Part shown: positions 31,965-61,832 of the stretch, one piece after another
Layout: each line of letters begins with the position of its first letter
Numbering within the stretch: position 1 is the stretch's first letter
Assembly (NCBI GenBank): GCA_964388185.1
Contig: CAYLYJ010000001.1
Coordinates: 25,873-89,872 of the forward strand
DNA length: 64,000 nucleotides
DNA from: an uncultured Coriobacteriaceae bacterium
GTDB lineage: Bacteria > Actinomycetota > Coriobacteriia > Coriobacteriales > QAMH01
Direction: 5' to 3'
Position numbers and translations under genes: made by a program
Notes under the pieces: generated by a model
The model's input: the letters and a program-made list of their open reading frames with translations, nothing else
What the model was told of the DNA's origin: nothing
The model's database searches: none

Positions 31965-31992
31965 GTGCCAGGGGGCCAGCCCCCCCCGGCAC
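31965..31992. repeat. REP-like palindrome, divergent variant
   Basis: GTGCCAGGGGG-CCAG-CCCCCCCGGCAC is an imperfect palindrome with the same G-run/C-run layout as the canonical REP. It lies 8 nt before a canonical copy. Confidence 0.6.
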
Positions 31993-32000
31993 ACTTTAAC

Positions 32001-32025
32001 GTGACAGGGGTCAGGCCCCTGTCAC
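32001..32025 (+). repeat. REP-like 25-nt palindromic hairpin element (also a plausible intrinsic terminator for the 27159 gene)
   Basis: GTGACAGGGG-TCAGG-CCCCTGTCAC read directly. It is followed immediately by GTTTTGTTTT, and it is the only copy with a clear T-tract. Confidence 0.9.
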
Positions 32026-32058
32026 GTTTTGTTTTGGGTCGCGGGGGCCGGCGGGAAT

Positions 32059-32083
32059 GTGTCAGGGGTCAGGCCCCTGTCAC
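32059..32083 (+). repeat. REP-like palindromic element (1 mismatch)
   Basis: GTGTCAGGGG-TCAGG-CCCCTGTCAC; the left arm has A>T. Confidence 0.85.
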
Positions 32084-32247
32084 ATTCGGGAGGTGCCGGT
32101 CAGGGGTGTAAAGCATGGCTGCTAAGTGGCTGGTCAGAGGGTCACGAGGCGCGGATTTTGGGTGTGTGGATGTATAGCAAATCGGGTGCTATCTCCGCAG
32201 GTCAGAGGCGTATAGCACGGCGATTTTCGAGGATGTGGGGGAGAGAT

Positions 32248-32272
32248 GTGACAGGGGCCAGGCCCCTGTCAC
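32248..32272. repeat. REP-like palindromic element (loop variant)
   Basis: GTGACAGGGG-CCAGG-CCCCTGTCAC; perfect 10-bp arms with loop CCAGG. Confidence 0.9.
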
Positions 32273-32391
32273 ATGGGGCGGCTTCGTCCGCAACCTGCTC
32301 GGGCGGAAGCCGGATTTCGCCCGGAAGAAAACCGGCGATTCCACGATTCCCGTTCGGCGAAACTGTCAGATCCGCTTGCTACGATTGCCCG

Positions 32392-32814
32392 ATGAACGGC
32401 GAGCGCGACATACGGGCCGAGAGGCGAGGACAGGCTTGCGGGAGGGTGATCATCCCGCCGGACGTGAACCTGTGGCCCCACGAGCTCAGGACCGCCGACG
32501 CGCTGGCGAGGGCGGGGCACGTGGTCGAGTTCGTGCGCAAGAACGACACGCCGCACGAAAAGACGGCGGATGCTCTTGTAGACGGCGTCCTGTGGGAGTT
32601 CAAGGCGCCGAGGTCGAGCCATCTGAGCGCCGTCGAGCGCAACCTGAAGAAGGGGCGTTGGCAATCAGAACGCATTGTATTTGACGGCAGGCGCATGAAG
32701 CGGCTGCCTGATTACGCAATTGAGCGAGAAGTTCGCACAAGAGCATATAGGATTCCGCATATCAGGAAGCTGCTTTACGTAAATAAGCAAGGGCAAATCA
32801 TTGACATAAAATGA
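32392..32814 (+). CDS. Small basic protein with a PD-(D/E)xK-like nuclease motif (CdiA-CT/toxin-domain-like), 140 aa
   Basis: ATG at 32392. The upstream 121 codons of track ORF 32029..32814 run through three REPs and are rejected. The sequence ...HELRTADALARAGHVVEFVRKNDTPHEKTADALVDGVLWEFKAP...GRWQSERIVFDG... carries a D-x(n)-E-x-K core (D..DGVLWEFK). From memory it resembles stand-alone CdiA-CT tRNase-like toxin domains. A TACGAT hexamer 6 nt before the ATG is conserved with the copy at 41180-41185, which suggests a possible leaderless mRNA. Confidence 0.55.
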   Translation: MNGERDIRAERRGQACGRVIIPPDVNLWPHELRTADALARAGHVVEFVRKNDTPHEKTADALVDGVLWEFKAPRSSHLSAVERNLKKGRWQSERIVFDGRRMKRLPDYAIEREVRTRAYRIPHIRKLLYVNKQGQIIDIK

Positions 32815-32839
32815 TTGTGCGCCTACAATTACTACCAGT

Positions 32840-32887
32840 AAAGCGCCGGAAAGGTACGTTAGTTACCTCCTCGGGCGCTTTCTTTTT
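32840..32887 (+). terminator. Intrinsic terminator-like hairpin after the 32392 gene
   Basis: AAAGCGCC (32840-32847) pairs with GGCGCTTT (32874-32881) around an imperfect inner stem, followed by CTTTTT. Confidence 0.6.
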
Positions 32888-32898
32888 ATGCGCAGAAC

Positions 32899-32942
32899 GT
32901 GACAGGGGTCAGGGAATGTGACAGGGGTCAGGCCCCTGTCAC
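32899..32942 (+). repeat. Half-REP plus full REP
   Basis: Half site GTGACAGGGGTCAGGG (32899-32914), then GTGACAGGGG-TCAGG-CCCCTGTCAC (32918-32942). Confidence 0.9.
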
Positions 32943-32995
32943 ATAAAGGCAGATCATTGACATTGGAAGAGGTCAGGAGATACAATAACCTCAGT

Positions 32996-33044: not shown

Positions 33045-33054
33045 TGCGCAGTAC

Positions 33055-33079
33055 GTGACAGGGGCCTGCTCCCTGTCAC
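33055..33079 (-). repeat. REP-like palindromic element (variant)
   Basis: GTGACAGGGG-CCTGC-TCCCTGTCAC. Confidence 0.8.
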
Positions 33080-33923: not shown

Positions 33924-33948
33924 GTGACAGGGGCCTGACCCCTGTCAC
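33924..33948 (-). repeat. REP-like 25-nt palindromic hairpin element
   Basis: GTGACAGGGG-CCTGA-CCCCTGTCAC read directly; 22 nt from the stop of the 33971 gene. Confidence 0.9.
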
Positions 33949-35023: not shown

Positions 35024-35048
35024 GTGACAGGGGCCTGACCCCTGTCAC
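35024..35048 (-). repeat. REP-like 25-nt palindromic hairpin element
   Basis: GTGACAGGGG-CCTGA-CCCCTGTCAC read directly. Confidence 0.9.
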
Positions 35049-35050
35049 GC

Positions 35051-35800
35051 TTAGCAGCGCTGGATGATGCCCCTGCCTATGCCAGTCATTCGCTCTATCT
35101 GGCGTATTGATAGCCCGCATGCCTTGAGCTTGCAGATCGACGTGTCACGGAAGCGCTTGTCCTTCGTCAAAAGCAGCTCCCTCCACTCCGGGCCAAGCTC
35201 GTGCTCGGCTATCCGCAAGGCCCTGCCGTTGCTTGGCTTTGCGGGTTGCCGGGGTTTTGTCTCGATCTCGATGTGGGCGTCAGTCGCCATTGCGTGAAAC
35301 GCCTGGAAGGCCGCCAGGTTGTCAAACATGCCGCTCACGAGAGTGATATCGCATATGTTGGGCTGGCCCGTGTACTCCTGGTAGCTGCTCCACGCGTAGT
35401 CGAGCGACTCGCAAAGACCGCCCTCGATCGGGTTTCGGTGTATGTAGCGCACGACCGTGAGCAGCTGCTCGTCGCTCTCTATGCCCTGGCTGCCGAACCG
35501 CCCTTGGAAAAGGTGCCCCGTGTGCCGGTGGCATTTGTTGAAATAGCTCGCGTAGGTTGACTGAAGCGTGCGCATGAACGATGAGATGGCCGTGATCGGG
35601 GCTTGTAGTAGCAGATGGACGTGGTTATCCATGAGAACCCACGCGAGGACCGTAACGTGAAGCGAGTCCGAGAAGCGGGCGATCAGCTCTAGGAACTCGA
35701 GGCGGTCGTCGTTGTCTTCGAAGATAAACTGGCGTCCCACACCGCGGTTGAACACATGATAGACGCCGCTTGTGCATTCAGATCGCATGATACGGGACAT
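35051..35800 (-). CDS. rayT: IS200/IS605-family Y1 HUH transposase of the REP-associated (RAYT) type with C-terminal HTH, 249 aa
   Basis: HUH motif in MDNHVHLLL; catalytic-Tyr motif in VVRYIHRNP; overall COG1943-like sequence (YHVFNRG...FEDDDDR...GHLFQGRF). The C-terminal ACGLSIRQIERMTGIGRGIIQRC looks like a DnaA-domain-IV-like HTH. A strong SD (AGGAAGGAGGACC) precedes the ATG at 35800. Confidence 0.85.
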   Translation of the reverse strand: MSRIMRSECTSGVYHVFNRGVGRQFIFEDNDDRLEFLELIARFSDSLHVTVLAWVLMDNHVHLLLQAPITAISSFMRTLQSTYASYFNKCHRHTGHLFQGRFGSQGIESDEQLLTVVRYIHRNPIEGGLCESLDYAWSSYQEYTGQPNICDITLVSGMFDNLAAFQAFHAMATDAHIEIETKPRQPAKPSNGRALRIAEHELGPEWRELLLTKDKRFRDTSICKLKACGLSIRQIERMTGIGRGIIQRC

Positions 35801-35821: not shown

Positions 35822-35846
35822 GTGACAGGGGCCTGACCCCTGTCAC
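35822..35846 (-). repeat. REP-like 25-nt palindromic hairpin element
   Basis: GTGACAGGGG-CCTGA-CCCCTGTCAC read directly. Confidence 0.9.
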
Positions 35847-36265: not shown

Positions 36266-36290
36266 GTGACAGGGGCCTGACCCCTGTCAC
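36266..36290 (-). repeat. REP-like 25-nt palindromic hairpin element
   Basis: Perfect copy; 3 nt from the stop codon of the 36294 ATPase gene. Confidence 0.9.
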
Positions 36291-36293
36291 GTT

Positions 36294-37553
36294 TTAGGGA
36301 GCGAGCGCGGCAAGCGGAACAACGAGAACGCCGTCTTCGCGCTGGTAGGCAGCCGACGTCGCGGTAAGTACCATCAGGAACGAAGGGGCTCCCTCAGATT
36401 CCCGATCCACTCTCTCCGCAAGCTTTCTCAGGTTCTTTGCCGCCTGGTCAATTTGCGCGTTCCCCATCTTGACTTCAACGGGAGCCCATCGTCCGTCTTC
36501 TAGCACGATTACCGCATCCGCCTCGAGCCCGGTCTTATCACGGTAGTGGCACACACGACCGCCCATCGCATCTGCGTAGACGCGCAGATCGCGTATACAT
36601 AGGGACTCGAATAATAGGCCGAAGGTGTTGAAATCACTCATGAGTGTAGTCGGAGATGCCCCGAGTATCGCGATCGCAACCGACGGATCGCAGAAGTGCC
36701 GTGTCGGGCTGGTCCGAACGGCGGTCTTCGACCTTAACCTCGGATTCCAGGCCTCCAGATCATCGATGACGAACGCACGAGCGAGGGCATCGACATAGTC
36801 GGAAACAGTAACCATAGATGGTGGCTCGCCTTGCATGTCGGCCCGGATGGTGGAAAGGGGTGCCTCGGTCGATATATTTCTCGCATATGAGCGCATGATG
36901 GCCCTGAGCCAGGTCGAGTTGCGCCTCGTACCCTCGAGCTCATCTATGTCAGCATCCATCATCTCGTCAACGTAGTTTTTCGCCTGGGCAAGAGCAATCT
37001 TCGAATCATGCTCGATTACCGCCTGAGGCCATCCGCCTCGGCAAAGGGCATACGCGATTCTGTCTATGTCGAATTCAACGAGGGACTCAATTTCGCTGTT
37101 GCTATCAAATAGTTTTCTGAGCGAGACTGCGCCGCTGGACTCTCCCGACTCATACAGGGACATTGTTCGCATGCGGAGGCGAGCGATGCGTCCCACGCCC
37201 GAGTGGACTGGCCGCTTCTTGGGTGTTGCGGAGCCCGTGAGGATATAGGCGCCCTTTTCCCTCGTCATGTCCACGTCGAATCTAACCGCATCCCACAGCT
37301 GCGGCGCCATTTGCCATTCGTCTATGAGTCGCGGCTTCGGTCCCTCTAGAATTGCCGATGGCTTAATATCGGCAAGGGCAAGAAGTGATTGACTCGTGTC
37401 GGGATCCTGGAGAAGGACCGTGCTTGCCGCCCTCTGACGGCCGGTTTCCGTCTTGCCGCACCATTTGGGTCCGGTTATCTGAACGGCGCCCGACGTGCGG
37501 AGCATCCAGTCGAGCGTTTGGTCTGCAACACGCGGGATATACTTCCAACTCAT
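36294..37553 (-). CDS. AAA+ ATPase of the COG1373 type (AAA_14-like N-domain plus DUF4143-like C-domain), 419 aa
   Basis: Start MSWKYIPRV at 37553, after AAGGAA. Walker A is GPKWCGKT and Walker B-like is RLIDEWQ. The C-terminal GLEADAVIVLEDGRWAPVEVKMG carries a D...E-V-K motif. Closest paralog is the 39430 gene. Confidence 0.85.
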   Translation of the reverse strand: MSWKYIPRVADQTLDWMLRTSGAVQITGPKWCGKTETGRQRAASTVLLQDPDTSQSLLALADIKPSAILEGPKPRLIDEWQMAPQLWDAVRFDVDMTREKGAYILTGSATPKKRPVHSGVGRIARLRMRTMSLYESGESSGAVSLRKLFDSNSEIESLVEFDIDRIAYALCRGGWPQAVIEHDSKIALAQAKNYVDEMMDADIDELEGTRRNSTWLRAIMRSYARNISTEAPLSTIRADMQGEPPSMVTVSDYVDALARAFVIDDLEAWNPRLRSKTAVRTSPTRHFCDPSVAIAILGASPTTLMSDFNTFGLLFESLCIRDLRVYADAMGGRVCHYRDKTGLEADAVIVLEDGRWAPVEVKMGNAQIDQAAKNLRKLAERVDRESEGAPSFLMVLTATSAAYQREDGVLVVPLAALAP

Positions 37554-37609
37554 CTGCGTTCCTTTGCTCCGAGCTTTATTACCTTGCATTTTAGCAGACA
37601 ACTTTGCTA

Positions 37610-37665
37610 GTTGGACCGTTTTGAGTTTATGAGTTGGACTGTTTTGAGTTTACAAGTTAGACGAT
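37610..37665. repeat. 2.4 copies of a 23-bp tandem repeat upstream of the ATPase gene, truncated by a REP
   Basis: gttggaccgttttgagtttatga / gttggactgttttgagtttacaa / gttagacgat, then the REP at 37666. Confidence 0.85.
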
Positions 37666-37819
37666 GTGACAGGGGCCTGACCCCTGTCACATTTTGAGGG
37701 CCTGTGAGTGCGCAATGGGGTCTCTATGAGGCGTCGGCTGCTTGCGGGCTTCTGAGGGCGTTCTGGGGCTCCTACAGCCATGTTGCGACGCAACGTGACA
37801 GGGGCCTGGCACCTGTCAC
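37666..37819 (-). repeat. Composite element E1: REP - 104-nt conserved spacer - REP
   Basis: REP 37666-37690 is perfect; REP 37795-37819 is the variant GTGACAGGGGCCTGGCACCTGTCAC. The spacer aligns almost base for base with those at 39305-39408 and 40862-40968, and contains TTCTGAGGGC twice. Confidence 0.85.
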
Positions 37820-39263: not shown

Positions 39264-39433
39264 GTGACAGGGACCAAACGTGACAGGGACCTGGCACCTG
39301 TCACGTTCTGAGGGCTTGTGAGTGCGCAATGGGGTCTCTGGAGGCGTCGGCTGCTTGCAGGGTTTCTGAGGGCGTTCTGGAGCTTCTACGGCCATGTCGC
39401 GACGCGATGTGACAGGGGCCTGACCCCTGTCAC
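39264..39433 (-). repeat. Composite element E2: half-REP, REP - 104-nt conserved spacer - REP
   Basis: Half site GTGACAGGGACC (39264-39275), variant REP 39280-39304 and perfect REP 39409-39433. The TGA stop of the 39430 ATPase gene (39430-39432, minus strand) is the TGA of GTGACAGG. Confidence 0.85.
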
Positions 39434-40818: not shown

Positions 40819-40993
40819 GTGACAGGGACCGACGATGTGACAGGGGCCTGGCACCTGTCACGTTCTGAGGGCCTGTGAGTGCGCAATGGGGTCTCTCTGT
40901 GAGGCGCCGGCTGCTTGCAGGGCTTCTGAGGGCGTTCTGGAGTTTCTACGGCCATGTTGCGACGCGATGTGACAGGGGCCTGACCCTTGTCAC
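40819..40993 (-). repeat. Composite element E3: half-REP, REP - 107-nt conserved spacer - REP
   Basis: Half site GTGACAGGGACC (40819-40830), variant REP 40837-40861 and REP 40969-40993 (CCCTTGTCAC arm). Confidence 0.85.
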
Positions 40994-41049: not shown

Positions 41050-41073
41050 GTGACAGGGGCTGACCCCTGTCAC
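41050..41073 (-). repeat. REP-like palindromic element (24 nt, 1-nt deletion in loop)
   Basis: GTGACAGGGG-CTGA-CCCCTGTCAC. Confidence 0.85.
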
Positions 41074-41837: not shown

Positions 41838-41852
41838 GTGACAGGGGGCAGG
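41838..41852. repeat. Partial REP (left arm only)
   Basis: GTGACAGGGGGCAGG with no right arm; 11 nt from the higA stop. Confidence 0.6.
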
Positions 41853-42497: not shown

Positions 42498-42522
42498 GTG
42501 ACAGGGGCCTGACCCCTGTCAC
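42498..42522 (-). repeat. REP-like 25-nt palindromic hairpin element
   Basis: Perfect copy with CGAT/ATCG flanks. Confidence 0.9.
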
Positions 42523-42615: not shown

Positions 42616-42640
42616 GTGACAGGGGCCTGACCCCTGTCAC
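42616..42640 (-). repeat. REP-like 25-nt palindromic hairpin element
   Basis: Perfect copy with AAAT/ATTT flanks. Confidence 0.9.
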
Positions 42641-43954: not shown

Positions 43955-43979
43955 GTGACAGGGGTCAGGCCCCTGTCAC
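43955..43979 (+). repeat. REP-like 25-nt palindromic hairpin element
   Basis: GTGACAGGGG-TCAGG-CCCCTGTCAC. Confidence 0.9.
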
Positions 43980-44303: not shown

Positions 44304-44328
44304 GTGACAGTAATCTGACCTCTGTCAC
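44304..44328 (-). repeat. Degenerate REP
   Basis: GTGACAGTAATCTGACCTCTGTCAC keeps the GTGACAG...CTGTCAC ends and the CTGA loop core. Confidence 0.6.
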
Positions 44329-44618: not shown

Positions 44619-44643
44619 GTGACAGGGGCCTGACCCCTGTCAC
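44619..44643 (-). repeat. REP-like 25-nt palindromic hairpin element
   Basis: Perfect copy, 7 nt after the AbrB-like stop. Confidence 0.9.
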
Positions 44644-44718: not shown

Positions 44719-44743
44719 GTGACAGGGACCTGACCCCTGACAC
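44719..44743 (-). repeat. REP variant
   Basis: GTGACAGGGACCTGACCCCTGACAC; part of a ~53-bp direct repeat (44692-44744 matches 44823-44875). Confidence 0.8.
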
Positions 44744-44794
44744 ATGAGCGCGACGCAAATCAATATCGCACTAATACTATATAGGGGTTCCGAT

Positions 44795-44819
44795 GTGACA
44801 GGGGCCTGACCCCTGACAC
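44795..44819 (-). repeat. REP variant
   Basis: GTGACAGGGGCCTGACCCCTGACAC; shares the right-arm T>A change with its two neighbours. Confidence 0.8.
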
Positions 44820-44849
44820 ATCGGAAGCGAATGCGATGCAATCAAAAAT

Positions 44850-44874
44850 GTGACAGGGACCTGACCCCTGACAC
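44850..44874 (-). repeat. REP variant
   Basis: GTGACAGGGACCTGACCCCTGACAC; second copy of the 53-bp direct repeat. Confidence 0.8.
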
Positions 44875-45547: not shown

Positions 45548-45572
45548 GTGACAGGGGCCTGACCCCTGTCAC
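45548..45572 (-). repeat. REP at the centre of a 59-nt extended palindrome
   Basis: CCCCAGGTCAGAGCGAT-REP-ATCGCTCTGACCTGCGG (45531-45589); the arms match at 26 of 27 positions. Confidence 0.9.
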
Positions 45573-45672: not shown

Positions 45673-45697
45673 GTGACAGGGGTCAGGCCCCTGTCAC
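45673..45697 (+). repeat. REP-like 25-nt palindromic hairpin element
   Basis: GTGACAGGGG-TCAGG-CCCCTGTCAC. Confidence 0.9.
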
Positions 45698-45725: not shown

Positions 45726-45750
45726 GTGACAGGGGCCTGACCCCTGTCAC
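45726..45750 (-). repeat. REP-like 25-nt palindromic hairpin element
   Basis: GTGACAGGGG-CCTGA-CCCCTGTCAC. Confidence 0.9.
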
Positions 45751-58000: not shown

Positions 58001-61000
58001 AGCTCACGCTGGCCGCCCTGTGGACGGCACTGGCCGCGGCCCTGGCAGCGCTGCTGCTGATGGTGGTGGCCCGCCGCCGCCGTCGCGCCGAGGAGGCGTG
58101 CGAGGCGCTCGAGGCCGAGGCTGCCGGCGTGTACGGCGTGCACGCAGCCGCATGGGGCAACGGGCGCGCGACGCGCACGCTCGCGGCCAGCGGTTACGGT
58201 GCGCATTCGGTGCGCACGGACGGCTCGCGGGTGACGCGCGTGGAGCTGGCGGCTGCGGCGGCCAGCGCGAGCGTCGAGGGCTGCGAGACGCGCGAGGAAT
58301 ATGTGGAGCGCGCGATTGCGTGCGGTATGGGTGCTCACGCCGTGGCGTCGAGCGCCCTTTGCGATGACAACGAGCTGCGCTCGAGCTGCTGCGGCGCCCA
58401 TTCGGTGGCCGCTGCGGGTCGCGGCGCGCATGCGATACCGGTTCTGGCCGACGAGGCCGCCGCTGGCGCCGTGGAGCGCCTGGGCGCGGCCGAAGGAGCC
58501 CACACGGTCTCCAAGGCCGGAGAGAGCGCTCTGGATCGCCTGGTGGCGGCTTACGGCGAGCACAGCGTGCGCCGCGCCGACGATGGCGTCTGGGAGAGCT
58601 TCGACAACGTGGTGGCGCCGGTGCGACCGGCGGCTCCGACGGCCCGCGAGCGCGTGGCCGCTGCGATGCGCGGGCTCAAGCCGCGCGTGAGCGGCGCCGG
58701 TGCGCACGAGGTGGCGACGGCTGGCGAGCAGCTGGCGAGCGTGACAGGGGTCAGGCCCCTGTCACATGTGCAGCTGGCCTGCATTTATGCATGGATGTGC
58801 AATAGTAAACGTGAAATTTTCGGCACCGATTTCGTGGCATACGAAGCTCCGGTGCCTGCGAGCAAGGCGCAGCGCAAGGCTGCAAAACAGGCTGCGAAAA
58901 ACGCTGGCCTCCGCGGTGGACTATTTGGCCGCGGCAACGTGACAGGGGTCAGACCCCTGTCACATAATGGCGAAACCGCAGGTCAGAGCGTATTCGCCGT
59001 GAGAAATTTGCCCTTCGAAGGGGATAACTCTGCCCATTTACGGGCGTACTGTGCCCTCAGCCAGGCGGATGCGGAGCTCGCACCGCCTGTCGCGTATGAA
59101 ATGAACGTTTCCGCCGTTCGACCGCGGTCAAGGCGCATGAAATTAGCCTTGGGCATGCCATCGGTGATCTTGGCGTTGTGCCTGGCCACGTTTGGTGTGG
59201 GTGCGCATCTCTCACCGAGCGTCGCAATGGCCGACGAAACATCTAGTACTAGTGCAGCCGGCGTCGTGGCCGCCGTGATCGGGGACGATTCTACGGCCTC
59301 TCAGGCGTCTTCGGCATCTGGGACGGGTCTGGACAAGGCCCCGGCCTCTAACGGGGCTCAGACGGCAAATACGGGCGTTGCAGGAGATTTGGGCAACGCG
59401 GCTAATAACGCTTCGACCAGCGGAAACGGTACAGATACCGTGACTAAGGGCGAAAATGCCACTCTTAATACCAATGGTTCCGATACCAATACTAAGGACG
59501 TTCAGGACGCCGAGAAGGGCGTCGAGGGCGATTCTGAGGCCTCTGAGGGCCTCGAGAAGGCCCCCGAAGCCACTCCTGGCGAGGATAAGGACGCCGTGAA
59601 GGACGCTGCTGACGCCGATACGAGCGCTGCTGGCGATTCCTCCACCAATAAGGACGCGACCGCGGGGTCCGAAAATACCCCGAATTCCTCCGAAAATAAT
59701 TCCGATCGCCACCAGAATGATGGCGGAAACGACTCCGATTCCAACGATTTCGACGAGCCGGTGCTCCCCGCCGAGGGCCAGCCGACGGCTCCTTCCCCGG
59801 CAGATCAGCCGACCGACGATGATACCTCGACACCCCCATCTAGCGGGGATGATAGCAGCAATGCTAGCTCATTGACCACGCAAGATAGCCTAGCACCGCC
59901 GGGTGCTAGCACCCAATCCGATCCACCTCCATTGGACTCCGGAACGTACTTCATCCGATGGAACGAGCAATCGGACTTTTGGATCGGAGAAAAGGATAAT
60001 CAAGTCGCCGTTTACCACAACCCTGGTACCGGCTTGCCTATTTTCTGGAATATAGACTTCGTGTCTAATTCTTCTGCTTATGTGATCAAGATTGGCGATA
60101 TGTACCTTGGCCGGGCGGTTTCCGACGATGAGTACTCCCTCGTCCTTCTTGACTCCGTGAGCGATGGCCAAAGTGAAATTCTTTGGGATATTTTCGCGAC
60201 CGAGAATCTCGAGCCCGGAACCTACTTCATTTGCGACCCGACGCGTTCCATTTACGTACGCGCGAGGCAGACCGACGAGACCGAGCTGACGCTTCTGGTC
60301 CGTGGCGGCATGGCTGAGGTTCCCGTCGCGAACAGTTACATCTGGATGATTGGTCAGCCTCCCGCGCAGGATTGGTCGATTGAGTACTTCCCCGCGGGCG
60401 CGACTGAGGGTACGACTCCCGAGACGAGTGTTTCCAGCGTCTCCGGTGCTACCATCCCCGAGTGCGGCTACAAGCGCTTCGGCTATACCTTCATTGGTTG
60501 GAACACTGCCGAGGACGGTACGGGCACGGCTTACATGCCCGGCGACTTCGTTCCCGGCGACGGCGTGCTTTCCGAGGACTTCGTGCTGAGGCTCTTCGCT
60601 CAGTGGAAAGAGGCCTTCGTCAACATCACCGTTAGTATTAGTGGGGGCGGCACCGTCAAGGACGACGCCACTAATAAGAAGAGTGACAGCATCACGCAGA
60701 CCGTGAGCTCCGCGACGGGTCTGATCAAGGACACCGCCGACAAGGGCTTGAGTGGCGTGACTGCCGTTCCGGGCCGCGGTTTCCACTTCGGCTCGTGGCT
60801 CATCGATGGCGGCGTTGGCTCGATCGCGGATTCGCTGCGCTTCAACAAGACGCTGACCGCCGATCAGATCATGCAGCTTTCGAAGTTCACCGATCCCGAG
60901 ACGGGCTGGACGCTGTTCCATGACACGACGCTCGTTGCGGACTTCATCGCTAATACTTATATGATCAAGTACGACGCCAACGGCGGCCTGGGTACCATCG

Positions 61001-61659
61001 CCGCGCGCAGCGTCGATTACGGTTCCAGCGCCGTGCTCACCAAGGCCGACGCGCTCAAGCGCGACCGCTACAAGTTCAAGGGCTGGAACACCAAGGCCGA
61101 CGGCAGCGGCATTGCCGTGAGCGATGCCGAGACGCTCGAGCGTCTGCTGGCTGCCGGTGTCCTGGCCGATGCCGATGGTGCGATCACGACGCTGTATGCT
61201 CAGTGGGAGCTCATCCCCGAGGACACGCCCGCTCCTGCGCCGAACACCACTCCGAATGCCACGCCGAGCAACGGCGATGACGGCAACAACTATGGTGGCT
61301 ACCGCGGTTACCGCGGCTGGGGTTATGCGTACGCCGACGAGGCCGAGCTGCCCGCCGCCGAAGAGACCGACGAGATGCTCGACGCCACTCCTGCGAGTGA
61401 CGAGATGATCACGACCAAGGGCGGTAACCCGGTGCTCGACTTCTTCGGCACGGATGCCGGCAAGGTCGTCGCCGTCGTTGGCGGCGCCGCGATTACGGTC
61501 GCGGTTATTGCCGGCATCGCAGCACTCGTCGCCGCACATGGCGCCGCCGGTGCTGCTGGCACAGCCGGCGCGGCTGGAGCCGCGGCTGCAGAGGGCGGCT
61601 TCTTCTCCCGCCTGCGTAGGAGGATCGCGAACTTCTTTGGACGCGGCAAGCAGGGTTAA
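46072..61659 (+). CDS. Giant cell-surface repeat protein ORF, uninterrupted for 5,195 codons; probably two genes fused by lack of a stop
   Basis: ATG at 46072 gives MGLANAGTTCAVPAAKARNPLVAFIAVVFVAAALLFAMPSLAYA/SSE, a signal peptide; the track start at 45952 (GTG) adds 40 non-signal residues. An acidic S/T/D-rich region is followed by many Flg_new-type repeats and MucBP-like modules. A sorting-signal-like PPRTG + TM + RRRRR lies at 57967-58086. There is no in-frame stop until TAA at 61657-61659 (per the ORF track). The frame crosses a GAHxV-repeat tail, two REPs (58741, 58939) and a second signal peptide at 59101/59137. Confidence 0.8.
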   Translation: MGLANAGTTCAVPAAKARNPLVAFIAVVFVAAALLFAMPSLAYASSEAEASPQASEAQEILLSQKESSTSANKTPDESPTPPGYTAQDAFNIDLGAQATEVDLVSGDGASSYTPGDDKASINDKDSDDDSDSDSNQGTHDKADSNTTADEDSDATANPKDETDSTVDSNGASSSITDEKAAGSDANQSAGPTGDSKADDVIATDRDGQSADQTAGAAADNAGEVQKEQTKPQVQQPAKSQVGTASTVTPAATSGTVHVVFQTYAAGSYNSLAAVLAGTHTTIGNATDKVYKTTNAFAGYANGGDSSVTSFGIGSPNVLPTYYRYGYTLKSWTRVMWNERRSRLVVNTYNVGATTNTTIFPAGTEVVLFANWERVQYSLSYYQTGSATIVWDNNSSSSYWDTVLPSETQVPVTVNPDPNVFSTSGENGKWHLKPLQTAQFNNYDFGLKVADHAADGSTSSLVYYNFTPGKPYANGVLTVGQIISAYYPQGDTYDAALGSITKWEVFPCWNPTPSTEYKITFAIGSGDSSKGTVTGKEIKVANDGTGKVTSALWTGANVSASDTNKTDGYQLKANAWTGKIGTNSYTFNSLAELYNFAVSGDMVLSPVWEKIAGPFTVTFDANGGSVTPGSASATEFTGSITIPAAPTMEGKTFSGWYTAASGGTKLYSGGGTTTYADLLKAIYGSSNNGTNQYNENNKSVTIYAHWGDVEYKYHFESNGGSGIYSTVGSESTTTWNGTITVPAAPTPDSGYSFVGWFTEKDGAGTQVATGSAYKTLAGNNAATKSLTFYAFFREDVVKMEFKVAAGSTGNVTLGHGSTTGQNSITLYVGAATGKLYTYDGANYTLATGNVGAVTPTFGSNYRYQSIGWLDGSGAELNSSSAQAQYVTINTTTGVLTPKAYNGTYRAGTYSIKAAPKPYYYKVEYYLQGLDGSWASTPTEFTSGTANYGTAVQVRNFSADTTATQVDPKTYAGFTYTSTVIGSVGRIDAMGVGTTSNYGTNILKLYYTRNQHTVTLDWASAPAGVAAPTFTIGGTSMNSGAQVGYGQTAVTVPEPAAVPGYVFVGWTRATGSAAVTLSPIGSTKGVTFTMPDGNVVLTGTWRAMKYRVEFVNDDRTDQHSWGSLSTGNGAWSVSGSGINAKYTIDVDRGTQIKPSGMTAISAPGATPSNSNNYYFTGWEYYNASGAKQFWGAGSTNNLVIDPSNFRVTTTGLPSGIDGIITITARWGLVRVVSWTTSTPGTFAGVNKTQIKDDDAGNTPTMTEAQATFDQLNGQKDTTSTNPRNTGKPMGKVGYKFTGWHWEMTGADTGTQYYTTIASENGLSIGGHRYTYMSEADLANMPVTCSITFLAQWAPTKQVVTITNTSPSGTGTWAAGFDPTVPDDKQKTGSTFTLPTASQITKPGCTFQWMDNMGKTYAPGATYTVGEGKLSPSTDPTVESNYVINIWPVWVEGKATINYKLGNGVATGAGVLTKASETVDLSGGNPAGSEAKANPHYTFVGWFTDAACTQKITDMNWVHDGSAGTGTHLVPGKNASTGLFDTATYYAKFIATTYTITFVSDDDDHIGSERGTVATVTGKQNPAQLTYSSPLSGNVTVTAKPGFRHTGWKYSEDGGTTWKTMDTAFKNSEHNNAVWGSIMLYATYNMRDDLSIAFRDDTYTSGPIHNKSYTGMSWDDNVSVRLPSGYDVRPGYNFLGWYFNTNPNDVMDKDIKFSAAAAKYAAPDGAGVNGLTLYAKWQAKDGYQVIYNTNGGGTAPASKNNVKWDQTGLLAADQTRAGYTFLGWFVDDPSNHDNDRKITADNAYSVLAAGDDTKMSVTLTAHWKQKTYQIQYLDNVGTTQLGHAGSSSDTLAKVLYWDSVVPTFTPTKTGSTFIGWTYGTGTTVGTTTKISDLAGGVDVEDGHTFIVRASWQGNPTYTINYYLLKRNADGTYTANGAPESLTFSGYLTPGVDADATNLQGAGESAAVNYWTKFAKAGYAADTTNIHGKNVIRFNGGAIIANSGTNHVFKLYFYEKEYTLKYVDDNGSAFTPPVADKVVGWESSSLAPTTAPTRPGYGSVSWTYNGTPVAGKTIADLLGASGENTTTLTLKAVWGENKTTITYTVSGPSGSASVTPGSEQINSATGTATGSKVTLSDPTSYKLLGWFYNDGAGEVAVDSNWVVNNADGSISIVPQKEGGVYVARTYYAKVAELSALNYTVEHYFMKNDGTYGTTADETASGSDKENVTINAADKKVTRQGFTYDASAAGSITSITLLTTDPDGSRVLKLYYVRDSYTIEVIPAEAGKDSPSPAPSIDDSHLTDGKKYMGSSQNLPIVGNHDGWTLTWKLDDGTTLSATDTSFIVPFEADGKVTLTAVWTRNKMNVSFTDADKPSTPAGFSVTASPVKVDFGKNLSSVSGWNMSKVTVTQPSEWALVGWEVWNADHTVKLGDVADPMIWTIDQDTIFSAKWAQTLVVTYYPGDHAAAGQNSKTYQDYKSSDNAPMPSWASKTGGNPSADHPNAATGYAWIGWKWTLDGVDYYFYANPADALAGTTSTAMPTTVDNNYAFTALYKALDRTLSFDLSGTETWTDGDSATSKTIATKTGETIPFASMPTPQKAGWKFVGWKVSGTDDSTAIKTGMNYLVPAIADDTIHFVAVFKVDAWYVTYIVEGDGGVRDNDEDTVSPTLETAPKGCTAKPNPGFKFVGWFWRDTDGTEHTVDESWLTRNADGSVKITPHADSGTAGNYVWAERTYFARFTAGDTSFKIWYMQQNVDGTWGATAADIETVTTTTAGAKVTTGQTYQISDFTLKSFLGFVLSSDNNGQPTDVTVLGNGSSVLKVFLERVKNDVTFEFAPGDAPSGVTVPPAMTDQVFGSTVTLPTVSAPGYKFGWTAKYTDENGAEQTLAISGGSFTMPAFPVTVTGTWTNPVYHIVFTTDQAGAGNMPNATNTTDFDRYNSDPSSTANTISWNGSGWVPMGMDGNIVIPTYDGMTFKGWYYKDAAGKYQPLTDDVTFAMLAGNNPNNETAYIYGRWDKALYLVIFEYDDGREIATDDEVEWDQTVSVATGGRPSMPGFSFAGWYYMKDGAQVAYTGGKTFEQLAAELGLTAADKADTGRGIHLIAKFTQNQTFTVKFYKGAYDESGNLVAGPLYDESDVYEIADGATIQLVLRADGDFDLVLTGNEADGSKLPKLIEMPFISGYVYDANLSRALDILSTTDGRFAGELAIYLAPRRDYSITYVIQMPDGSTKNVTTRANLAWDSTGHAGVTATAPAGYKIDGGWFWKSQSGKTGTVAAADAYSELVNKIFGKKDTSKKNITLYIKAVAQTYSVIFADDNNGADNPYTQISRKDGITWGGKVAMTAASKPGYEFAGWQIRPAGGSAVTVSDGNVFSSLATRLGLTDVTALDTPVVIYAVWNKYVGVTIEFYKDSVSDANKLPHVQKYTGDQTKKKAGETYSVAKSLIDSQRPAGYTSPAGASMKLLVDEANNIIKVIYTLNKNFKIVLDANYTGKPADQTVSGLAWTEKPDAKITWAPSRMGYELKAKPQRWNTRADGKGTSISADMTYAQIAQLLKLDESAALKSGLKLYAQWAVANNFEVLYDLNNDRETNKKVTTAVPDDRTPIDVEELNEHKVAWNKGGFDKSNDGELDAAPNGYEFDGWNTKADGTGLKIDSSMTYEQISKYINKNAAQKSITLYAQWKELVIEITYVVDNEAAGTIDRKVDKVSAVTKQAVKDGSSAGTQLHSVATAKPGWHFVEWVLVTDDMTAKSGETFANVMKKLRDDESELQILSHANDGRLYGATYMAKFARNDNATIEYDRNDDLENNILGTGEIKDQTTAHGSHVNLSNGSEFKRGHYTLMGWNTEPDGSGTHYALGQTGIVMPVEGMKLYAEWGINNYGVTVNGPKDGGSVQPGSTTITWGEKVPKEFVDSLNPWADLGWHFTGWEYRMVDADTGEVITGFTTDPTTLTVKGELELTPVFEGADLVDGPPRTGDDSYEFELTLAALWTALAAALAALLLMVVARRRRRAEEACEALEAEAAGVYGVHAAAWGNGRATRTLAASGYGAHSVRTDGSRVTRVELAAAAASASVEGCETREEYVERAIACGMGAHAVASSALCDDNELRSSCCGAHSVAAAGRGAHAIPVLADEAAAGAVERLGAAEGAHTVSKAGESALDRLVAAYGEHSVRRADDGVWESFDNVVAPVRPAAPTARERVAAAMRGLKPRVSGAGAHEVATAGEQLASVTGVRPLSHVQLACIYAWMCNSKREIFGTDFVAYEAPVPASKAQRKAAKQAAKNAGLRGGLFGRGNVTGVRPLSHNGETAGQSVFAVRNLPFEGDNSAHLRAYCALSQADAELAPPVAYEMNVSAVRPRSRRMKLALGMPSVILALCLATFGVGAHLSPSVAMADETSSTSAAGVVAAVIGDDSTASQASSASGTGLDKAPASNGAQTANTGVAGDLGNAANNASTSGNGTDTVTKGENATLNTNGSDTNTKDVQDAEKGVEGDSEASEGLEKAPEATPGEDKDAVKDAADADTSAAGDSSTNKDATAGSENTPNSSENNSDRHQNDGGNDSDSNDFDEPVLPAEGQPTAPSPADQPTDDDTSTPPSSGDDSSNASSLTTQDSLAPPGASTQSDPPPLDSGTYFIRWNEQSDFWIGEKDNQVAVYHNPGTGLPIFWNIDFVSNSSAYVIKIGDMYLGRAVSDDEYSLVLLDSVSDGQSEILWDIFATENLEPGTYFICDPTRSIYVRARQTDETELTLLVRGGMAEVPVANSYIWMIGQPPAQDWSIEYFPAGATEGTTPETSVSSVSGATIPECGYKRFGYTFIGWNTAEDGTGTAYMPGDFVPGDGVLSEDFVLRLFAQWKEAFVNITVSISGGGTVKDDATNKKSDSITQTVSSATGLIKDTADKGLSGVTAVPGRGFHFGSWLIDGGVGSIADSLRFNKTLTADQIMQLSKFTDPETGWTLFHDTTLVADFIANTYMIKYDANGGLGTIAARSVDYGSSAVLTKADALKRDRYKFKGWNTKADGSGIAVSDAETLERLLAAGVLADADGAITTLYAQWELIPEDTPAPAPNTTPNATPSNGDDGNNYGGYRGYRGWGYAYADEAELPAAEETDEMLDATPASDEMITTKGGNPVLDFFGTDAGKVVAVVGGAAITVAVIAGIAALVAAHGAAGAAGTAGAAGAAAAEGGFFSRLRRRIANFFGRGKQG
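57967..58086 (+). other. Cell-wall-sorting-signal-like segment (PPRTG, hydrophobic helix, RRRRR)
   Basis: Codons read directly: P-P-R-T-G (57967-57981), DDSYEFE, LTLAALWTALAAALAALLLMVVA (58003-58071), RRRRR (58072-58086). The layout matches LPXTG-type signals, but the L is replaced by P and the ORF does not end after the basic residues. Confidence 0.5.
58087..58740 (+). other. Ala/Gly/Arg-rich tail with eight G-[AVE]-H-x-[VAI] motifs
   Basis: The motifs are at 58135 (GVHAA), 58198 (GAHSV), 58330 (GAHAV), 58393 (GAHSV), 58423 (GAHAI), 58495 (GAHTV), 58555 (GEHSV) and 58699 (GAHEV), all in the gene frame. The tail ends at the REP at 58741. Confidence 0.6.
58741..58765 (+). repeat. REP lying in frame inside the giant ORF
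   Basis: GTGACAGGGG-TCAGG-CCCCTGTCAC, translated as VTGVRPLSH. Confidence 0.9.
58939..58963 (+). repeat. REP variant lying in frame inside the giant ORF
   Basis: GTGACAGGGG-TCAGA-CCCCTGTCAC, translated as VTGVRPLSH. It is followed at 58976-58988 by CCGCAGGTCAGAG, a motif also seen at 32195 and, inverted, at 45577. Confidence 0.9.
59101..61659 (+). CDS. Alternative reading: separate surface protein (852 aa from ATG 59101, or 840 aa from ATG 59137) with signal peptide, beta-trefoil-like domain, Flg_new repeats and a C-terminal TM anchor
   Basis: MNVSAVRPRSRRMKLALGMPSVILALCLATFGVGAHLSPSVAMA/DE is a canonical signal peptide in the same frame as the upstream ORF. An S/T/N/D-rich region follows, then a triple [FLI]-W segment (59938-60360) and two Flg_new-type repeats (GYTFIGWNTAEDG...LFAQW; YKFKGWNTKADG...LYAQW). 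The C-terminus has the hydrophobic VVAVVGGAAITVAVIAGIAALVAA and a basic tail RLRRRIANFFGRGKQG. Confidence 0.55.
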   Translation: MNVSAVRPRSRRMKLALGMPSVILALCLATFGVGAHLSPSVAMADETSSTSAAGVVAAVIGDDSTASQASSASGTGLDKAPASNGAQTANTGVAGDLGNAANNASTSGNGTDTVTKGENATLNTNGSDTNTKDVQDAEKGVEGDSEASEGLEKAPEATPGEDKDAVKDAADADTSAAGDSSTNKDATAGSENTPNSSENNSDRHQNDGGNDSDSNDFDEPVLPAEGQPTAPSPADQPTDDDTSTPPSSGDDSSNASSLTTQDSLAPPGASTQSDPPPLDSGTYFIRWNEQSDFWIGEKDNQVAVYHNPGTGLPIFWNIDFVSNSSAYVIKIGDMYLGRAVSDDEYSLVLLDSVSDGQSEILWDIFATENLEPGTYFICDPTRSIYVRARQTDETELTLLVRGGMAEVPVANSYIWMIGQPPAQDWSIEYFPAGATEGTTPETSVSSVSGATIPECGYKRFGYTFIGWNTAEDGTGTAYMPGDFVPGDGVLSEDFVLRLFAQWKEAFVNITVSISGGGTVKDDATNKKSDSITQTVSSATGLIKDTADKGLSGVTAVPGRGFHFGSWLIDGGVGSIADSLRFNKTLTADQIMQLSKFTDPETGWTLFHDTTLVADFIANTYMIKYDANGGLGTIAARSVDYGSSAVLTKADALKRDRYKFKGWNTKADGSGIAVSDAETLERLLAAGVLADADGAITTLYAQWELIPEDTPAPAPNTTPNATPSNGDDGNNYGGYRGYRGWGYAYADEAELPAAEETDEMLDATPASDEMITTKGGNPVLDFFGTDAGKVVAVVGGAAITVAVIAGIAALVAAHGAAGAAGTAGAAGAAAAEGGFFSRLRRRIANFFGRGKQG

Positions 61660-61700
61660 GCCTGAGCGCGATGCCCGACCATGAGAGTACGTTACGAGAA

Positions 61701-61730
61701 GAGAGACCCGTACTGGGTCCCTCTTTATTT
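61701..61730 (+). terminator. Rho-independent terminator after the giant ORF
   Basis: GAGAGACCC-gtact-GGGTCCCTC (one mismatch in the stem) followed by TTTATTT. Confidence 0.7.
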
Positions 61731-61765
61731 ATGAGACGAGTACATGAATGTGGCTGGGGCAAAAT

Positions 61766-61790
61766 GTGACAGGGGCCTGACCCCTGTCAC
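61766..61790 (-). repeat. REP-like 25-nt palindromic hairpin element
   Basis: GTGACAGGGG-CCTGA-CCCCTGTCAC. Confidence 0.9.
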
Positions 61791-61807
61791 AAGTAAGTAG
61801 GCAAAAT

Positions 61808-61832
61808 GCGACAGGGGTCAGGCCCCTGTCAC
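61808..61832 (+). repeat. REP variant
   Basis: GCGACAGGGG-TCAGG-CCCCTGTCAC; it ends 20 nt before the next gene's ATG. Confidence 0.85.

What the first reader, a model, noticed from the sequence alone, without database searches (positions are those of the whole stretch)
31965..61832. One 25-nt perfect palindrome occurs more than 30 times, and its loop orientation tracks the direction of the adjacent gene
The core is a 10-bp stem (GTGACAGGGG / CCCCTGTCAC) with a 5-nt asymmetric loop, so orientation can be scored as CCTGA or TCAGG on the plus strand. I located 32 full or near-full copies, plus one divergent variant, one partial copy and three half sites. They lie in 31.9-45.75 kb, at 58741/58939 and at 61766/61808. 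Copies just downstream of plus-strand genes read TCAGG on the plus strand (32001, 32059, 32918, 43955, 58741, 58939). Copies just downstream of minus-strand genes read CCTGA on the plus strand (33055 variant, 33924, 35024, 36266, 37795 variant, 39409). The transcript would therefore almost always carry GUGACAGGGG-UCAGG-CCCCUGUCAC. The exceptions I saw are 44619, after the plus-strand AbrB-like gene, and 61766, after the giant ORF. This points either to strand-specific insertion, as expected for ssDNA HUH chemistry, or to selection for an RNA-level role such as 3'-end stabilisation or termination.
Basis: seen in the sequence. Interest (0 to 1): 0.6.

Follow-up and report, generated by a model that had tools for sequence, protein, structure and literature searches.

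The report
Palindromic repeats with their own transposase
A 25-31 bp hairpin-forming repeat occurs about 33 times around the gene for its probable single-strand DNA transposase in a gut Coriobacteriia genome; it is a new member of the known REP/TIR repeat kind, it marks where defence-gene modules come and go between strains, and its loop follows gene direction only as a moderate bias.

Summary
GTGACAGGGG-N5-CCCCTGTCAC occurs 30 times with at most 2 mismatches (0 expected), and there are three divergent copies and four half sites. The repeats flank both ends of a Y1 HUH transposase gene (35051-35800, minus strand). Its modelled fold matches E. coli TnpA-REP best. It has the class-2 Y---NP motif and an extra C-terminal helical domain. 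The hairpin contains GGGGTCAG, which fits the published GGGGWSAS motif of TIRYT-flanking inverted repeats. I read each repeat as two such repeats joined head to head. This is a REP-like family in Coriobacteriia and a new member of a known kind.

The orientation claim is only partly right. By nearest gene, 23 of 31 copies are co-oriented. All 14-15 copies in the minus-strand block agree, but the plus-strand contexts are mixed (9 versus 8). In other loci, 8 of 11 independent sites agree. Loops are inverted at orthologous sites between strains. The two RNA orientations differ by 1.2 kcal/mol, and most copies lack a U tract.

A related strain differs from the window by whole gene modules cut exactly at the repeats, so the repeats are junctions of a shuffled defence and toxin-antitoxin island. 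What causes the orientation bias is unresolved.

The parts
31965..31992 (+). Divergent related palindrome GTGCCAGGGGGCCAGCCCCCCCCGGCAC
32001..32025 (+). REP copy, loop TCAGG, followed by a T-rich tail. It lies 114 nt after the 1613-aa gene and looks like a terminator.
32059..32083 (+). REP copy, TCAGG, 1 mismatch
32248..32272 (+). REP copy, loop CCAGG. It starts a 175-nt leader shared with 41050.
32899..32908 (.). Half site GTGACAGGGG
32918..32942 (+). REP copy, TCAGG. It lies inside a window-specific duplication that is absent from the orthologue L067.
33055..33079 (-). REP variant (CCTGC, T in the stem). The orthologous copy in L100 has an inverted loop.
33924..33948 (-). REP copy, CCTGA on the + strand, 22 nt after the stop of the NTP_transf_8 gene
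35024..35048 (-). REP copy 2 nt after the stop of the transposase gene
35051..35800 (-). Y1 HUH transposase gene (RAYT/TIRYT-like, 249 aa). Motifs: HUH = NHVHLL, Y118-x3-N122-P123, WSSY; C-terminal helical domain at residues 190-247.
   Evidence: Pfam Y1_Tnp E 4e-15. NCBIfam REP_Tyr_transpos 69 bits, below the cut-off of 80. Alignment A1. AF2 pLDDT 89.6. Best PDB fold match 4ER8, E 2e-8.
35822..35846 (-). REP copy 21 nt upstream of the transposase start codon
35981..36005 (-). REP copy
36266..36290 (-). REP copy 3 nt after the stop of PDC-S01 gene A
36291..37794 (-). REP-to-REP module (gene A, one REP and the 104-nt core) that is present here and absent from the related strain L100
37666..37819 (-). 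Composite element e1: REP (37666), 104-nt core, variant REP (37795, 2 nt after the stop of gene B)
39264..39273 (.). Half site
39280..39433 (-). Composite element e2: variant REP (39280), core, REP (39409, whose GTGAC supplies the TGA stop of gene C)
40819..40828 (.). Half site
40837..40993 (-). Composite element e3: variant REP (40837), core, REP (40969)
41050..41073 (-). REP copy with a 4-nt loop (CTGA). Its left flank is shared with 37666 and its right flank with 32248.
41838..41847 (.). Half site
42498..42522 (-). REP copy 69 nt upstream of the HigB start
42616..42640 (-). REP copy 62 nt upstream of the plus-strand PDC-S01 gene D (discordant)
43955..43979 (+). REP copy 91 nt after gene D
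44304..44328 (-). Degenerate copy (4 mismatches). The orthologue in L057 is well preserved.
44619..44643 (-). REP copy 7 nt after the AbrB/MazE-like gene (discordant)
44719..44874 (-). Three tandem copies (44719, 44795, 44850) with repeated flanks (discordant)
45548..45572 (-). REP copy nested in a palindrome that extends 14 bp on each side
45673..45697 (+). REP copy, TCAGG. It forms a pair with 45726 that has inverted loops but directly repeated flanks.
45726..45750 (-). REP copy, CCTGA
58741..58765 (+). REP copy at the point where the coding signal of the giant gene ends. It is read in frame as VTGVRPLSH.
58939..58963 (+). REP copy, loop TCAGA, in the same open frame
61766..61790 (-). REP copy, CCTGA, between two plus-strand genes (discordant)
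61808..61832 (+). REP copy, TCAGG. It shares the directly repeated flank GGCAAAAT with 61766.

Best explanation
The palindrome is a REP-like repeat family that belongs to a RAYT/TIRYT-type Y1 HUH transposase encoded at 35051-35800. Each copy is best read as the two inverted-repeat ends of that transposase's element joined head to head: GTGACAGGGG, a short loop, then CCCCTGTCAC. On single-stranded DNA it folds into the hairpin that enzymes of this family bind and cut. Shown here: the repeat family exists; the transposase gene is flanked by copies on both sides; the protein has a TnpA-REP-like fold and motifs; homologues carry related flanking hairpins or inverted repeats; and a related strain differs from the window by whole modules whose ends lie exactly in the repeats. 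Inferred: the enzyme, or recombination between the repeats, spreads copies mainly to nearby DNA on the same strand and joins or removes gene modules at the repeats. This would build a defence and toxin-antitoxin island in which almost every gene is bracketed by copies. Loop orientation is a weak strand marker. It is inherited with the module or set at copying, and it is then eroded by hairpin-templated loop inversion and mismatch correction. This gives a moderate (about 75%) rather than strict agreement with gene direction. I do not consider a dedicated RNA function necessary to explain the data.
For: There are 30 copies against 0 expected. The Y1_Tnp gene is flanked at 2 nt and 21 nt by copies with the same loop sense. 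NCBIfam scores REP_Tyr_transpos above IS200. The family alignment shows HUH, Y---NP, WSSY and a conserved C-terminal GLSIRQIERxTGIGRG segment. The profile's best PDB hit is 4ER8, and the best fold match is also 4ER8, with E 2e-8 and TM 0.72. The 62% homologue is flanked by TGTGTCAGGGGGT-CAG-ACCCCCTGACACA. The Curtanaerobium homologue is flanked by GTGACAgCCAACCG / CGGTTGGtTGTCAC, and the Acetoanaerobium homologue by true 24-bp inverted repeats containing GGGACGGT. The hairpin contains GGGGTCAG, which fits the GGGGWSAS motif of TIRYT repeats (PMC3733652). The architecture with a C-terminal helix-turn-helix corresponds to subclass 2.1 of PMC6006769. The three 155-bp REP-core-REP elements are 89-90% identical, while the flanking genes share 0-40% protein identity and essentially no DNA similarity (only three short fragments between genes A and C). 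The window module 36291-37794 is absent from L100, where a single REP carries the outer flanks at 96% each. Conversely, a 1.8-kb REP-bounded module with another PDC-S01 gene is present only in L100. Neighbouring genes change at the REP in sites S1, S3 and S4 of other genomes. Flanks are mosaic between copies 37666, 41050 and 32248. Loop inversions occur at orthologous sites.
Against: No activity of the protein on this hairpin has been shown. The protein scores below NCBIfam's RayT cut-off (69 versus 80 bits). The repeat lacks the GT[AG]G tag of canonical REPs. Pfam finds no significant helix-turn-helix in the C-terminal part. The module differences between strains could come from ordinary homologous recombination between 25-31 bp repeats without any transposase. 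The uniform orientation of 14-15 copies in one block, despite observed loop flips, may point to a directional force that this explanation does not supply.
Confidence: 0.72

Rival explanations
1. The loop orientation is selected at the RNA level. Transcribed copies act as 3'-end stabilisers or U-tract-independent terminators, and the UCAGG form is the functional one, so copies end up co-oriented with the upstream gene.
For: Copies lie 0-3 nt after the stop codons of four minus-strand genes, and all of these are in the UCAGG sense. Across the window and other loci, 12 of 15 copies within 35 nt of a stop codon are co-oriented. Copy 32001 has a T-rich tail and looks like a terminator. The minus-strand block stays uniform although loops can flip.
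Against: UCAGG and CCUGA hairpins differ by only 1.2 kcal/mol. Most copies have no U tract. Copies upstream of genes show the same orientation as copies downstream of genes. In plus-strand contexts the split is 9 against 8. The discordant copies in 44.6-45.8 kb are conserved unchanged in the related contig L057. In the Clostridia MAG that has the same stem, I saw no consistent orientation relative to genes (roughly equal numbers either way, by eye).
Confidence: 0.13
2. Orientation is set by replication. The HUH enzyme inserts copies into the lagging-strand template in a fixed sense, as IS608 does, and the agreement with genes only reflects the excess of genes on the leading strand.
For: 70% of window copies share one orientation regardless of context. 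Insertion of IS200/IS605-family elements into the lagging-strand template is established (PMC6006769). An overall concordance of about 73% is within the range that gene strand bias could produce.
Against: Within one 64-kb window, which is presumably one replichore, all 9 CAG-on-plus copies lie in plus-strand gene contexts and none lies in the minus-strand block (Fisher p 0.004). At site S1 the copy follows the adjacent 416-aa gene, not the majority gene direction of the locus. The direction of replication could not be determined because GC skew here follows the coding strand.
Confidence: 0.12
3. The apparent rule is a by-product of history. Copies spread locally on one strand around the transposase gene, which happens to lie in a run of minus-strand genes, and elsewhere orientation is essentially random.
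For: All uniformly oriented copies lie within -2 to +7 kb of the transposase gene. Outside that block the window shows 9 against 8. The external independent sites give 8 of 11, p 0.23. Many copies are linked through composite elements, tandem arrays and duplications.
Against: The four copies at 32001-32918 switch sense exactly where gene direction switches. The stop-proximal copies in other genomes also lean towards co-orientation (12 of 15).
Confidence: 0.3

Closest known systems
TIRYT / TIRtron repeats (Di Nocera et al. 2013, PMC3733652), which correspond to TnpA-Y1 subclass 2.1 (Quentin et al. 2018, PMC6006769)
   Same: A RAYT-like Y1 protein with HUH and Y---NP motifs, a serine motif after the tyrosine and a C-terminal helical or HTH-like extension. 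The gene is flanked by inverted repeats that carry GGGGWSAS (here GGGGTCAG). The repeats form a moderately abundant family arranged as dimers and clusters, as described for the self-complementary S. maltophilia 1152 repeats.
   Different: Here each repeat is a short, near-perfect 25-31 bp palindrome present at very high local density. The host is a Coriobacteriia genome. Quentin et al. found no REP-like sequences for subclass 2.1, and in their sample Actinobacteridae (a different actinobacterial lineage from Coriobacteriia) carried only subclass 1.1. Placement in subclass 2.1 rests on architecture, not on a phylogenetic tree.
Canonical REP / RAYT (REPtron, REPIN, BIME) of Proteobacteria, e.g. 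E. coli TnpA-REP (PDB 4ER8)
   Same: Short extragenic palindromes in many copies, mostly between or after genes. A single Y1 transposase gene is flanked by them. The protein has the same fold. REPs close to stop codons and REP-mediated rearrangements are known in this system.
   Different: There is no 5' GT[AG]G tag. The protein falls below NCBIfam's RayT cut-off. The main doublets are direct pairs with a conserved 104-nt core, not inverted REPINs. The stem is a perfect palindrome, so only the loop marks orientation.
Integron attC sites and cassette arrays (including the Vibrio VCR repeats)
   Same: Near-identical repeats separate unrelated, mostly co-oriented accessory genes, including toxin-antitoxin genes. 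Strains differ by whole repeat-bounded modules. The presumed substrate is a folded single strand.
   Different: No integron integrase gene is present in the window. The repeats are 25-31 bp perfect palindromes without the attC R''-L''/L'-R' structure. The associated enzyme is an HUH transposase.
Intrinsic transcription terminators
   Same: A G+C-rich hairpin placed just after stop codons. Copy 32001 has a T-rich tail.
   Different: Most copies lack a T tract on either strand. Many copies lie upstream of genes or in arrays.

Membership tests
Canonical REP/RAYT (REPtron) | Short palindromic repeat in many copies, almost all extragenic | tested here: met
   30 copies against 0 expected. All lie outside confident coding sequence, except 39409, which overlaps a stop codon, and 58741/58939, which lie in a read-through frame.
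Canonical REP/RAYT (REPtron) | 5' GT[AG]G tetranucleotide at the foot of the hairpin | tested here: not met
   The element starts with (A)AY-GTGACA. GTGA is neither GTAG nor GTGG. The criterion comes from PMC6006769.
Canonical REP/RAYT (REPtron) | Y1 HUH transposase gene flanked by the repeats | tested here: met
   Copies at 35024 and 35822 bracket gene 35051-35800. The homologue in L094/L095 has the same arrangement.
Canonical REP/RAYT (REPtron) | Protein reaches NCBIfam NF047646 (RayT equivalog) cut-off | tested here: not met
   69.2 bits against a cut-off of 80. This is still well above the IS200 model at 29 bits.
Canonical REP/RAYT (REPtron) | Inverted doublets (REPINs) | tested here: inconclusive
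   The pairs with inverted loops, 45673/45726 and 61766/61808, have directly repeated flanks. The common doublets (129-159 bp apart) have their loops in direct orientation.
TIRYT / TnpA-Y1 subclass 2.1 | Class-2 motifs: HUH, Y---NP, and a downstream serine motif | tested here: met
   NHVHLL, Y118-IHR-N122-P123, and W136-S137-S138-Y139, all invariant or nearly invariant in 35 homologues.
TIRYT / TnpA-Y1 subclass 2.1 | C-terminal helix-turn-helix-like extension | tested here: inconclusive
   There is a conserved C-terminal segment, GLSIRQIERxTGIGRG, and the model shows a confident helical domain at residues 190-247. No Pfam HTH family reached significance.
TIRYT / TnpA-Y1 subclass 2.1 | Flanking inverted repeats with the GGGGWSAS motif | tested here: met
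   GGGGTCAG occurs in every CAG-sense copy. The motif comes from PMC3733652.
TIRYT / TnpA-Y1 subclass 2.1 | Phylogenetic placement inside subclass 2.1 | not tested
RAYT/TIRYT in general | Strand-specific binding and cleavage of the hairpin on single-stranded DNA | not testable with these tools
   This requires biochemistry.
Intrinsic terminator | G+C-rich hairpin followed by a T/U tract | tested here: not met
   Only about 5-7 REP copies have a T-rich tail on either strand.
Integron cassette array | Integron integrase next to the array, and attC sites with R''-L''/L'-R' architecture | tested here: not met
   Pfam scans of the island's ORFs found no tyrosine recombinase. The repeats are 25-31 bp perfect palindromes.

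The most novel reading that the evidence does not exclude
The hairpin repeats and their HUH transposase form an integron-like, single-strand-based cassette system. Any gene lying between two like-oriented repeats can be excised and re-inserted at another repeat. This would assemble and reshuffle defence and toxin-antitoxin genes, with loop sense marking the processed strand and being kept co-directional with the cassette's gene.
Probability: 0.12. Interest if true: 0.8.

Novelty: new member of a known kind. Interest (0 to 1): 0.45.

Why it matters
REP-type repeats and their domesticated HUH transposases have been studied almost entirely in Proteobacteria. For the large HTH-bearing subclass 2.1, no associated high-copy hairpin repeat had been found. 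This locus provides a clear case in gut Coriobacteriia. Related hairpins carrying the same 10-bp stem occur in several Firmicutes MAGs, which suggests a conserved recognition sequence. Two related strains differ by whole PDC-S01 defence-gene modules cut exactly at the repeats. This makes testable the idea that such repeats organise the gain and loss of accessory genes. Practically, these repeats break metagenome assemblies: several public contigs end exactly in them. They also create spurious ORFs (VTGVRPLSH, DRGQAPVT) and can supply or remove stop codons.

Tried and rejected
- Literature search for the stem sequence returned only unrelated primers.
- Rfam has no family for the hairpin or for the 175-nt leader. 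The only hit is DUF3800-XI.
- CRISPR was rejected: spacing is irregular (53-1529 bp) and whole genes lie between copies.
- Tandem gene duplication as the source of the repeated intergenic elements was rejected. The elements are 89-90% identical, whereas the genes are 0-40% identical at protein level.
- A long secondary structure for the 155-bp composite element has only weak support, z = -2.0.
- The window's own genome could not be extended. Two window proteins are not on record, and the repeat is absent from viral contigs and plasmids. A genome-wide count was therefore impossible.
- Replication direction could not be inferred, because GC skew follows the coding strand.
- My first codon model was dominated by the giant genes and was retrained on annotated loci. 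It recovers about 80-85% of annotated genes, so gene contexts in other loci are approximate.
- The Y1 homologue in L012 is only a fragment and gave no information.
- The Collinsella homologue (36% identity) shows no obvious matching flanking repeat.
- B-gene homologues at 72-73% identity in other species are not flanked by this repeat, so that test of cassette mobility gave no support.
Full report
**1. Observation**

A search for GTGACAGGGG-N5-CCCCTGTCAC allowing two mismatches finds 30 copies, 20 of them with perfect stems. None appeared in 100 dinucleotide-preserving shuffles. All copies lie at 32001-45750, 58741, 58939, 61766 and 61808. Relaxed searches add:
- a copy with a 4-nt loop at 41050;
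- a degenerate copy at 44304;
- a divergent relative at 31965;
- four half sites at 32899, 39264, 40819 and 41838.

When copies are oriented by their loop, the only flank conservation is aAY on the 5' side and RT on the 3' side. These usually pair with each other, so the element is a 29-31 bp palindrome. In the TCAGG sense the loop can close with a T.G pair, giving an 11-bp stem and a CAG triloop.

**2. Gene map**

- The window carries three giant surface-protein ORFs on the plus strand: 15-27035, 27045-31886 and 45952-61659.
- Another plus-strand gene begins just after 61832 and runs off the window.
- Between the giant genes lies a 14-kb island of lower G+C. It contains:
  - a CdiA_C-domain gene (plus strand);
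  - an unknown 189-aa gene, an NTP_transf_8 gene with a small partner, a Y1_Tnp gene, and three AAA_14/DUF4143 genes (all minus strand);
  - a DUF3800-XI RNA and a short DUF3800 ORF (plus strand);
  - higBA (minus strand);
  - a fourth AAA_14/DUF4143 gene and an AbrB/MazE-like gene (plus strand).
- The four ATPase genes match PADLOC's candidate defence family PDC-S01.
- Nearly every gene or gene pair is bracketed by copies of the palindrome. A copy lies 2-3 nt after the stops of the transposase gene and of ATPases A and B. In ATPase C the TGA stop lies inside the GTGAC of the repeat.

**3. The associated enzyme**

- ORF 35051-35800 (minus strand, 249 aa) matches Pfam Y1_Tnp.
- In NCBIfam it matches REP_Tyr_transpos at 69 bits (cut-off 80) and IS200 at only 29 bits.
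- An alignment of 35 homologues shows invariant HUH (NHVHL) and Y118-x3-N122-P123, a WSSY motif and a conserved C-terminal GLSIRQIERxTGIGRG segment.
- A profile of the family finds E. coli TnpA-REP (4ER8) as the best solved relative.
- An AlphaFold model (pLDDT 89.6) matches 4ER8 best (E 2e-8, TM 0.72), ahead of the IS200, IS608 and ISDra2 transposases. It has an extra helical domain at residues 190-247.
- The named homologues come from Coriobacteriales, Eggerthellaceae and Curtanaerobium. Public contigs carrying the closest ones are about the length of the gene, as expected if assemblies break in flanking repeats.

**4. The link between repeat and enzyme holds in relatives**

- A 62%-identical homologue is flanked on both sides by TGTGTCAGGGGGT-CAG-ACCCCCTGACACA, with CAG in the gene's sense in locus L095 (in L094 the upstream loop reads CTG), matching the window.
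- The Curtanaerobium homologue is flanked by the inverted half sites GTGACAgCCAACCG and CGGTTGGtTGTCAC.
- A 33%-identical homologue in Acetoanaerobium is flanked by true 24-bp terminal inverted repeats containing GGGACGGT.
- Di Nocera et al. described RAYT-like 'TIRYT' genes flanked by inverted repeats sharing GGGGWSAS. Some of those repeats are self-complementary and moderately abundant (PMC3733652).
- Quentin et al. equate these genes with subclass 2.1: long proteins with a C-terminal HTH. They found no REP-like sequences for this subclass (PMC6006769).
- The window's hairpin contains GGGGTCAG. I therefore read each copy as two such ends joined head to head.
- This reading also fits the genome scan. 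The same 10-bp stem occurs in 53 stretches from Coriobacteriia and from several Firmicutes and other MAGs. Loops there include ACNGT, which makes a 12+1+12 palindrome. One Clostridia MAG has about 25 copies arranged as inverted doublets.

**5. Orientation**

I scored each copy by the strand on which the loop reads N-CAG-N.

Within the window:
- All copies in the minus-strand block 33055-42498 (14-15) are co-oriented with the genes, whether they lie before or after a gene.
- The four copies at 32001-32918 are co-oriented with the plus-strand genes.
- From 42616 onward, where genes are on the plus strand, 5 copies agree and 8 do not.
- Overall, 23 of 31 copies agree.
- Context against orientation gives Fisher p = 0.004, or 0.0055 after collapsing composite elements and the tandem array.
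- The concordant minus-strand copies are one contiguous block centred on the transposase gene.

In other loci from the genome and metagenome scans:
- I used a codon model that recovers about 80-85% of annotated genes.
- After merging orthologous sites, 8 of 11 independent sites are co-oriented (p = 0.23).
- Of copies within 35 nt of a stop codon anywhere, 12 of 15 are co-oriented.
- The bias is therefore real but moderate.

**6. Loop sense is labile**

- At the site after a conserved 416-aa gene, L090 reads CCTGA where L066, L068 and others read TCAGG between the same flanks.
- L100 8826 reads CCTGA where the window's 33055 and L067 read the CAG type.
- Within the window, directly repeated flanks carry opposite loops in four cases:
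  - 32918 and 33055, inside a duplication that is missing from L067;
  - 45673 and 45726;
  - 61766 and 61808;
  - 32248 and 41050.
- Single-position variants (CCAGG, TCAGA, CCTGG, TCTGA) are what correction of the T.G or C.A mismatch in a hairpin would produce. This is my inference.
- Some copies sit in longer palindromes with unrelated arms: 45548 and L036 each extend 14 bp per side. Inference: this fits hairpin-templated extension, or insertion into existing hairpins.
- By contrast, all nine copies shared with L057 keep their sense at 93-96% identity.

**7. RNA-level tests**

- The two orientations fold with -23.2 and -22.0 kcal/mol as RNA, and equally as DNA.
- Only about 5-7 copies have a T-rich tail.
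- Nothing in the sequence distinguishes a functional from a non-functional orientation in RNA. A loop-specific factor cannot be excluded.

**8. The repeats are module junctions**

- The three 155-bp REP-core-REP elements between the ATPase genes are 89-90% identical. ATPases A, B and C share 0-40% protein identity, and DNA similarity is limited to three short fragments between A and C. Tandem gene duplication therefore did not create these elements.
- L100, the same island in a related strain (91-98% identity), lacks window segment 36291-37794 (core, one REP, gene A). At that point a single REP carries the 5' flank of 37795 and the 3' flank of 36266, each at 96% identity.
- L100 in turn has a 1.8-kb REP-bounded insert at the position of 40969. 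The insert holds another PDC-S01 gene and an inverted copy of the 261-bp spacer.
- In other genomes, the neighbours on one side of an orthologous REP differ (sites S1, S3 and S4).
- Copy 41050 shares its left flank with 37666 (96%) and its right flank with 32248 (77%).
- Whether the enzyme or ordinary recombination makes these joints is unknown.
- A perfect palindrome is both a direct and an inverted repeat of every other copy, so both deletions and inversions are possible at these sites. This is my inference.

**9. Verdict**

The feature is a REP-like family tied to a TIRYT/RAYT-type HUH transposase. It is a new member of a known kind, in a phylum and an enzyme subclass where such repeats had not been described. 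The candidates are strand-specific processing, local same-strand spread, inheritance with modules, and RNA-level selection. The most interesting open reading is that the repeats act as cassette boundaries in a defence island.

Noticed in passing
window 45952-61659, especially 58000-59400: The 5235-aa ORF has no stop where its coding signal ends. GC3 falls from about 0.9 to about 0.6 at 58740, exactly at a REP. The frame stays open through both REPs (each read as VTGVRPLSH) and about 600 nt of non-coding-like sequence, and then enters a second gene with its own signal peptide in the same frame. Either the first gene lacks a stop codon (a non-stop or fusion product) or there is a sequence error.
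   Followed up: partly
window 58000-58740: After the transmembrane anchor and an RRRRR stretch, the tail of the giant protein carries about seven repeats of a G-A-H-x-V motif.
   Followed up: no
window 41390-41438 and 41466-41810: A DUF3800-XI RNA (Rfam RF02975, 43.9 bits) lies directly upstream of a short 114-aa ORF with a DUF3800-like N-terminus. The ORF had no Pfam hit and may be truncated.
   Followed up: partly
window 32255-32428 and 41056-41228: A roughly 175-nt sequence, 77% identical between the two sites, starts at a REP and lies upstream of the CdiA_C gene and of the DUF3800 RNA. No Rfam family matches it. It may be a shared leader or regulatory RNA.
   Followed up: partly
window 36294-40785 and 42703-43863: Four divergent AAA_14/DUF4143 ATPases match PADLOC's candidate defence family PDC-S01. 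Together with higBA, an NTP_transf_8 pair, a CdiA_C-domain gene and an AbrB-like gene, they form a defence and toxin-antitoxin island between giant adhesin genes.
   Followed up: partly
L001-L052 (Clostridia MAG RGIG8523, JAGAKK01): The same 10-bp stem forms a separate repeat family in a low-G+C Clostridia MAG. Loops are GCAGC, TCAGA and GCAGA, and A and T runs flank the hairpin as in bidirectional terminators. Inverted doublets lie 108-116 bp apart, resembling REPINs.
   Followed up: partly
L014, L016, L024, L046, L053 and others: Lachnospiraceae, Desulfotomaculum, Dethiobacteria, Atribacterota and a Prevotella MAG carry single copies of GTGACAGGGGAC-N-GTCCCCTGTCAC, a 12+1+12 palindrome. Conservation of this stem across phyla is unexplained beyond the GGGGWSAS link.
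   Followed up: no
window 45300-45900: A second short repeat, AAGCGCGGAAC...GGTCAG(A)GC, recurs several times near the REPs in a stretch without convincing genes. It is conserved in L057.
   Followed up: no
window 39140-39260; L101, L102, L104 upstream regions: Repeated TTTGCATTTTTGC(C/A)AAA motifs precede the PDC-S01 B gene and its homologues in other species. They may be an operator or promoter element.
   Followed up: no
L101 (1497 bp) and the short (~1 kb) public contigs listed for the closest transposase homologues: L101 begins and ends inside REP copies, and the contigs carrying the closest transposase homologues are only about gene length; the repeat appears to fragment metagenome assemblies.
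   Followed up: no
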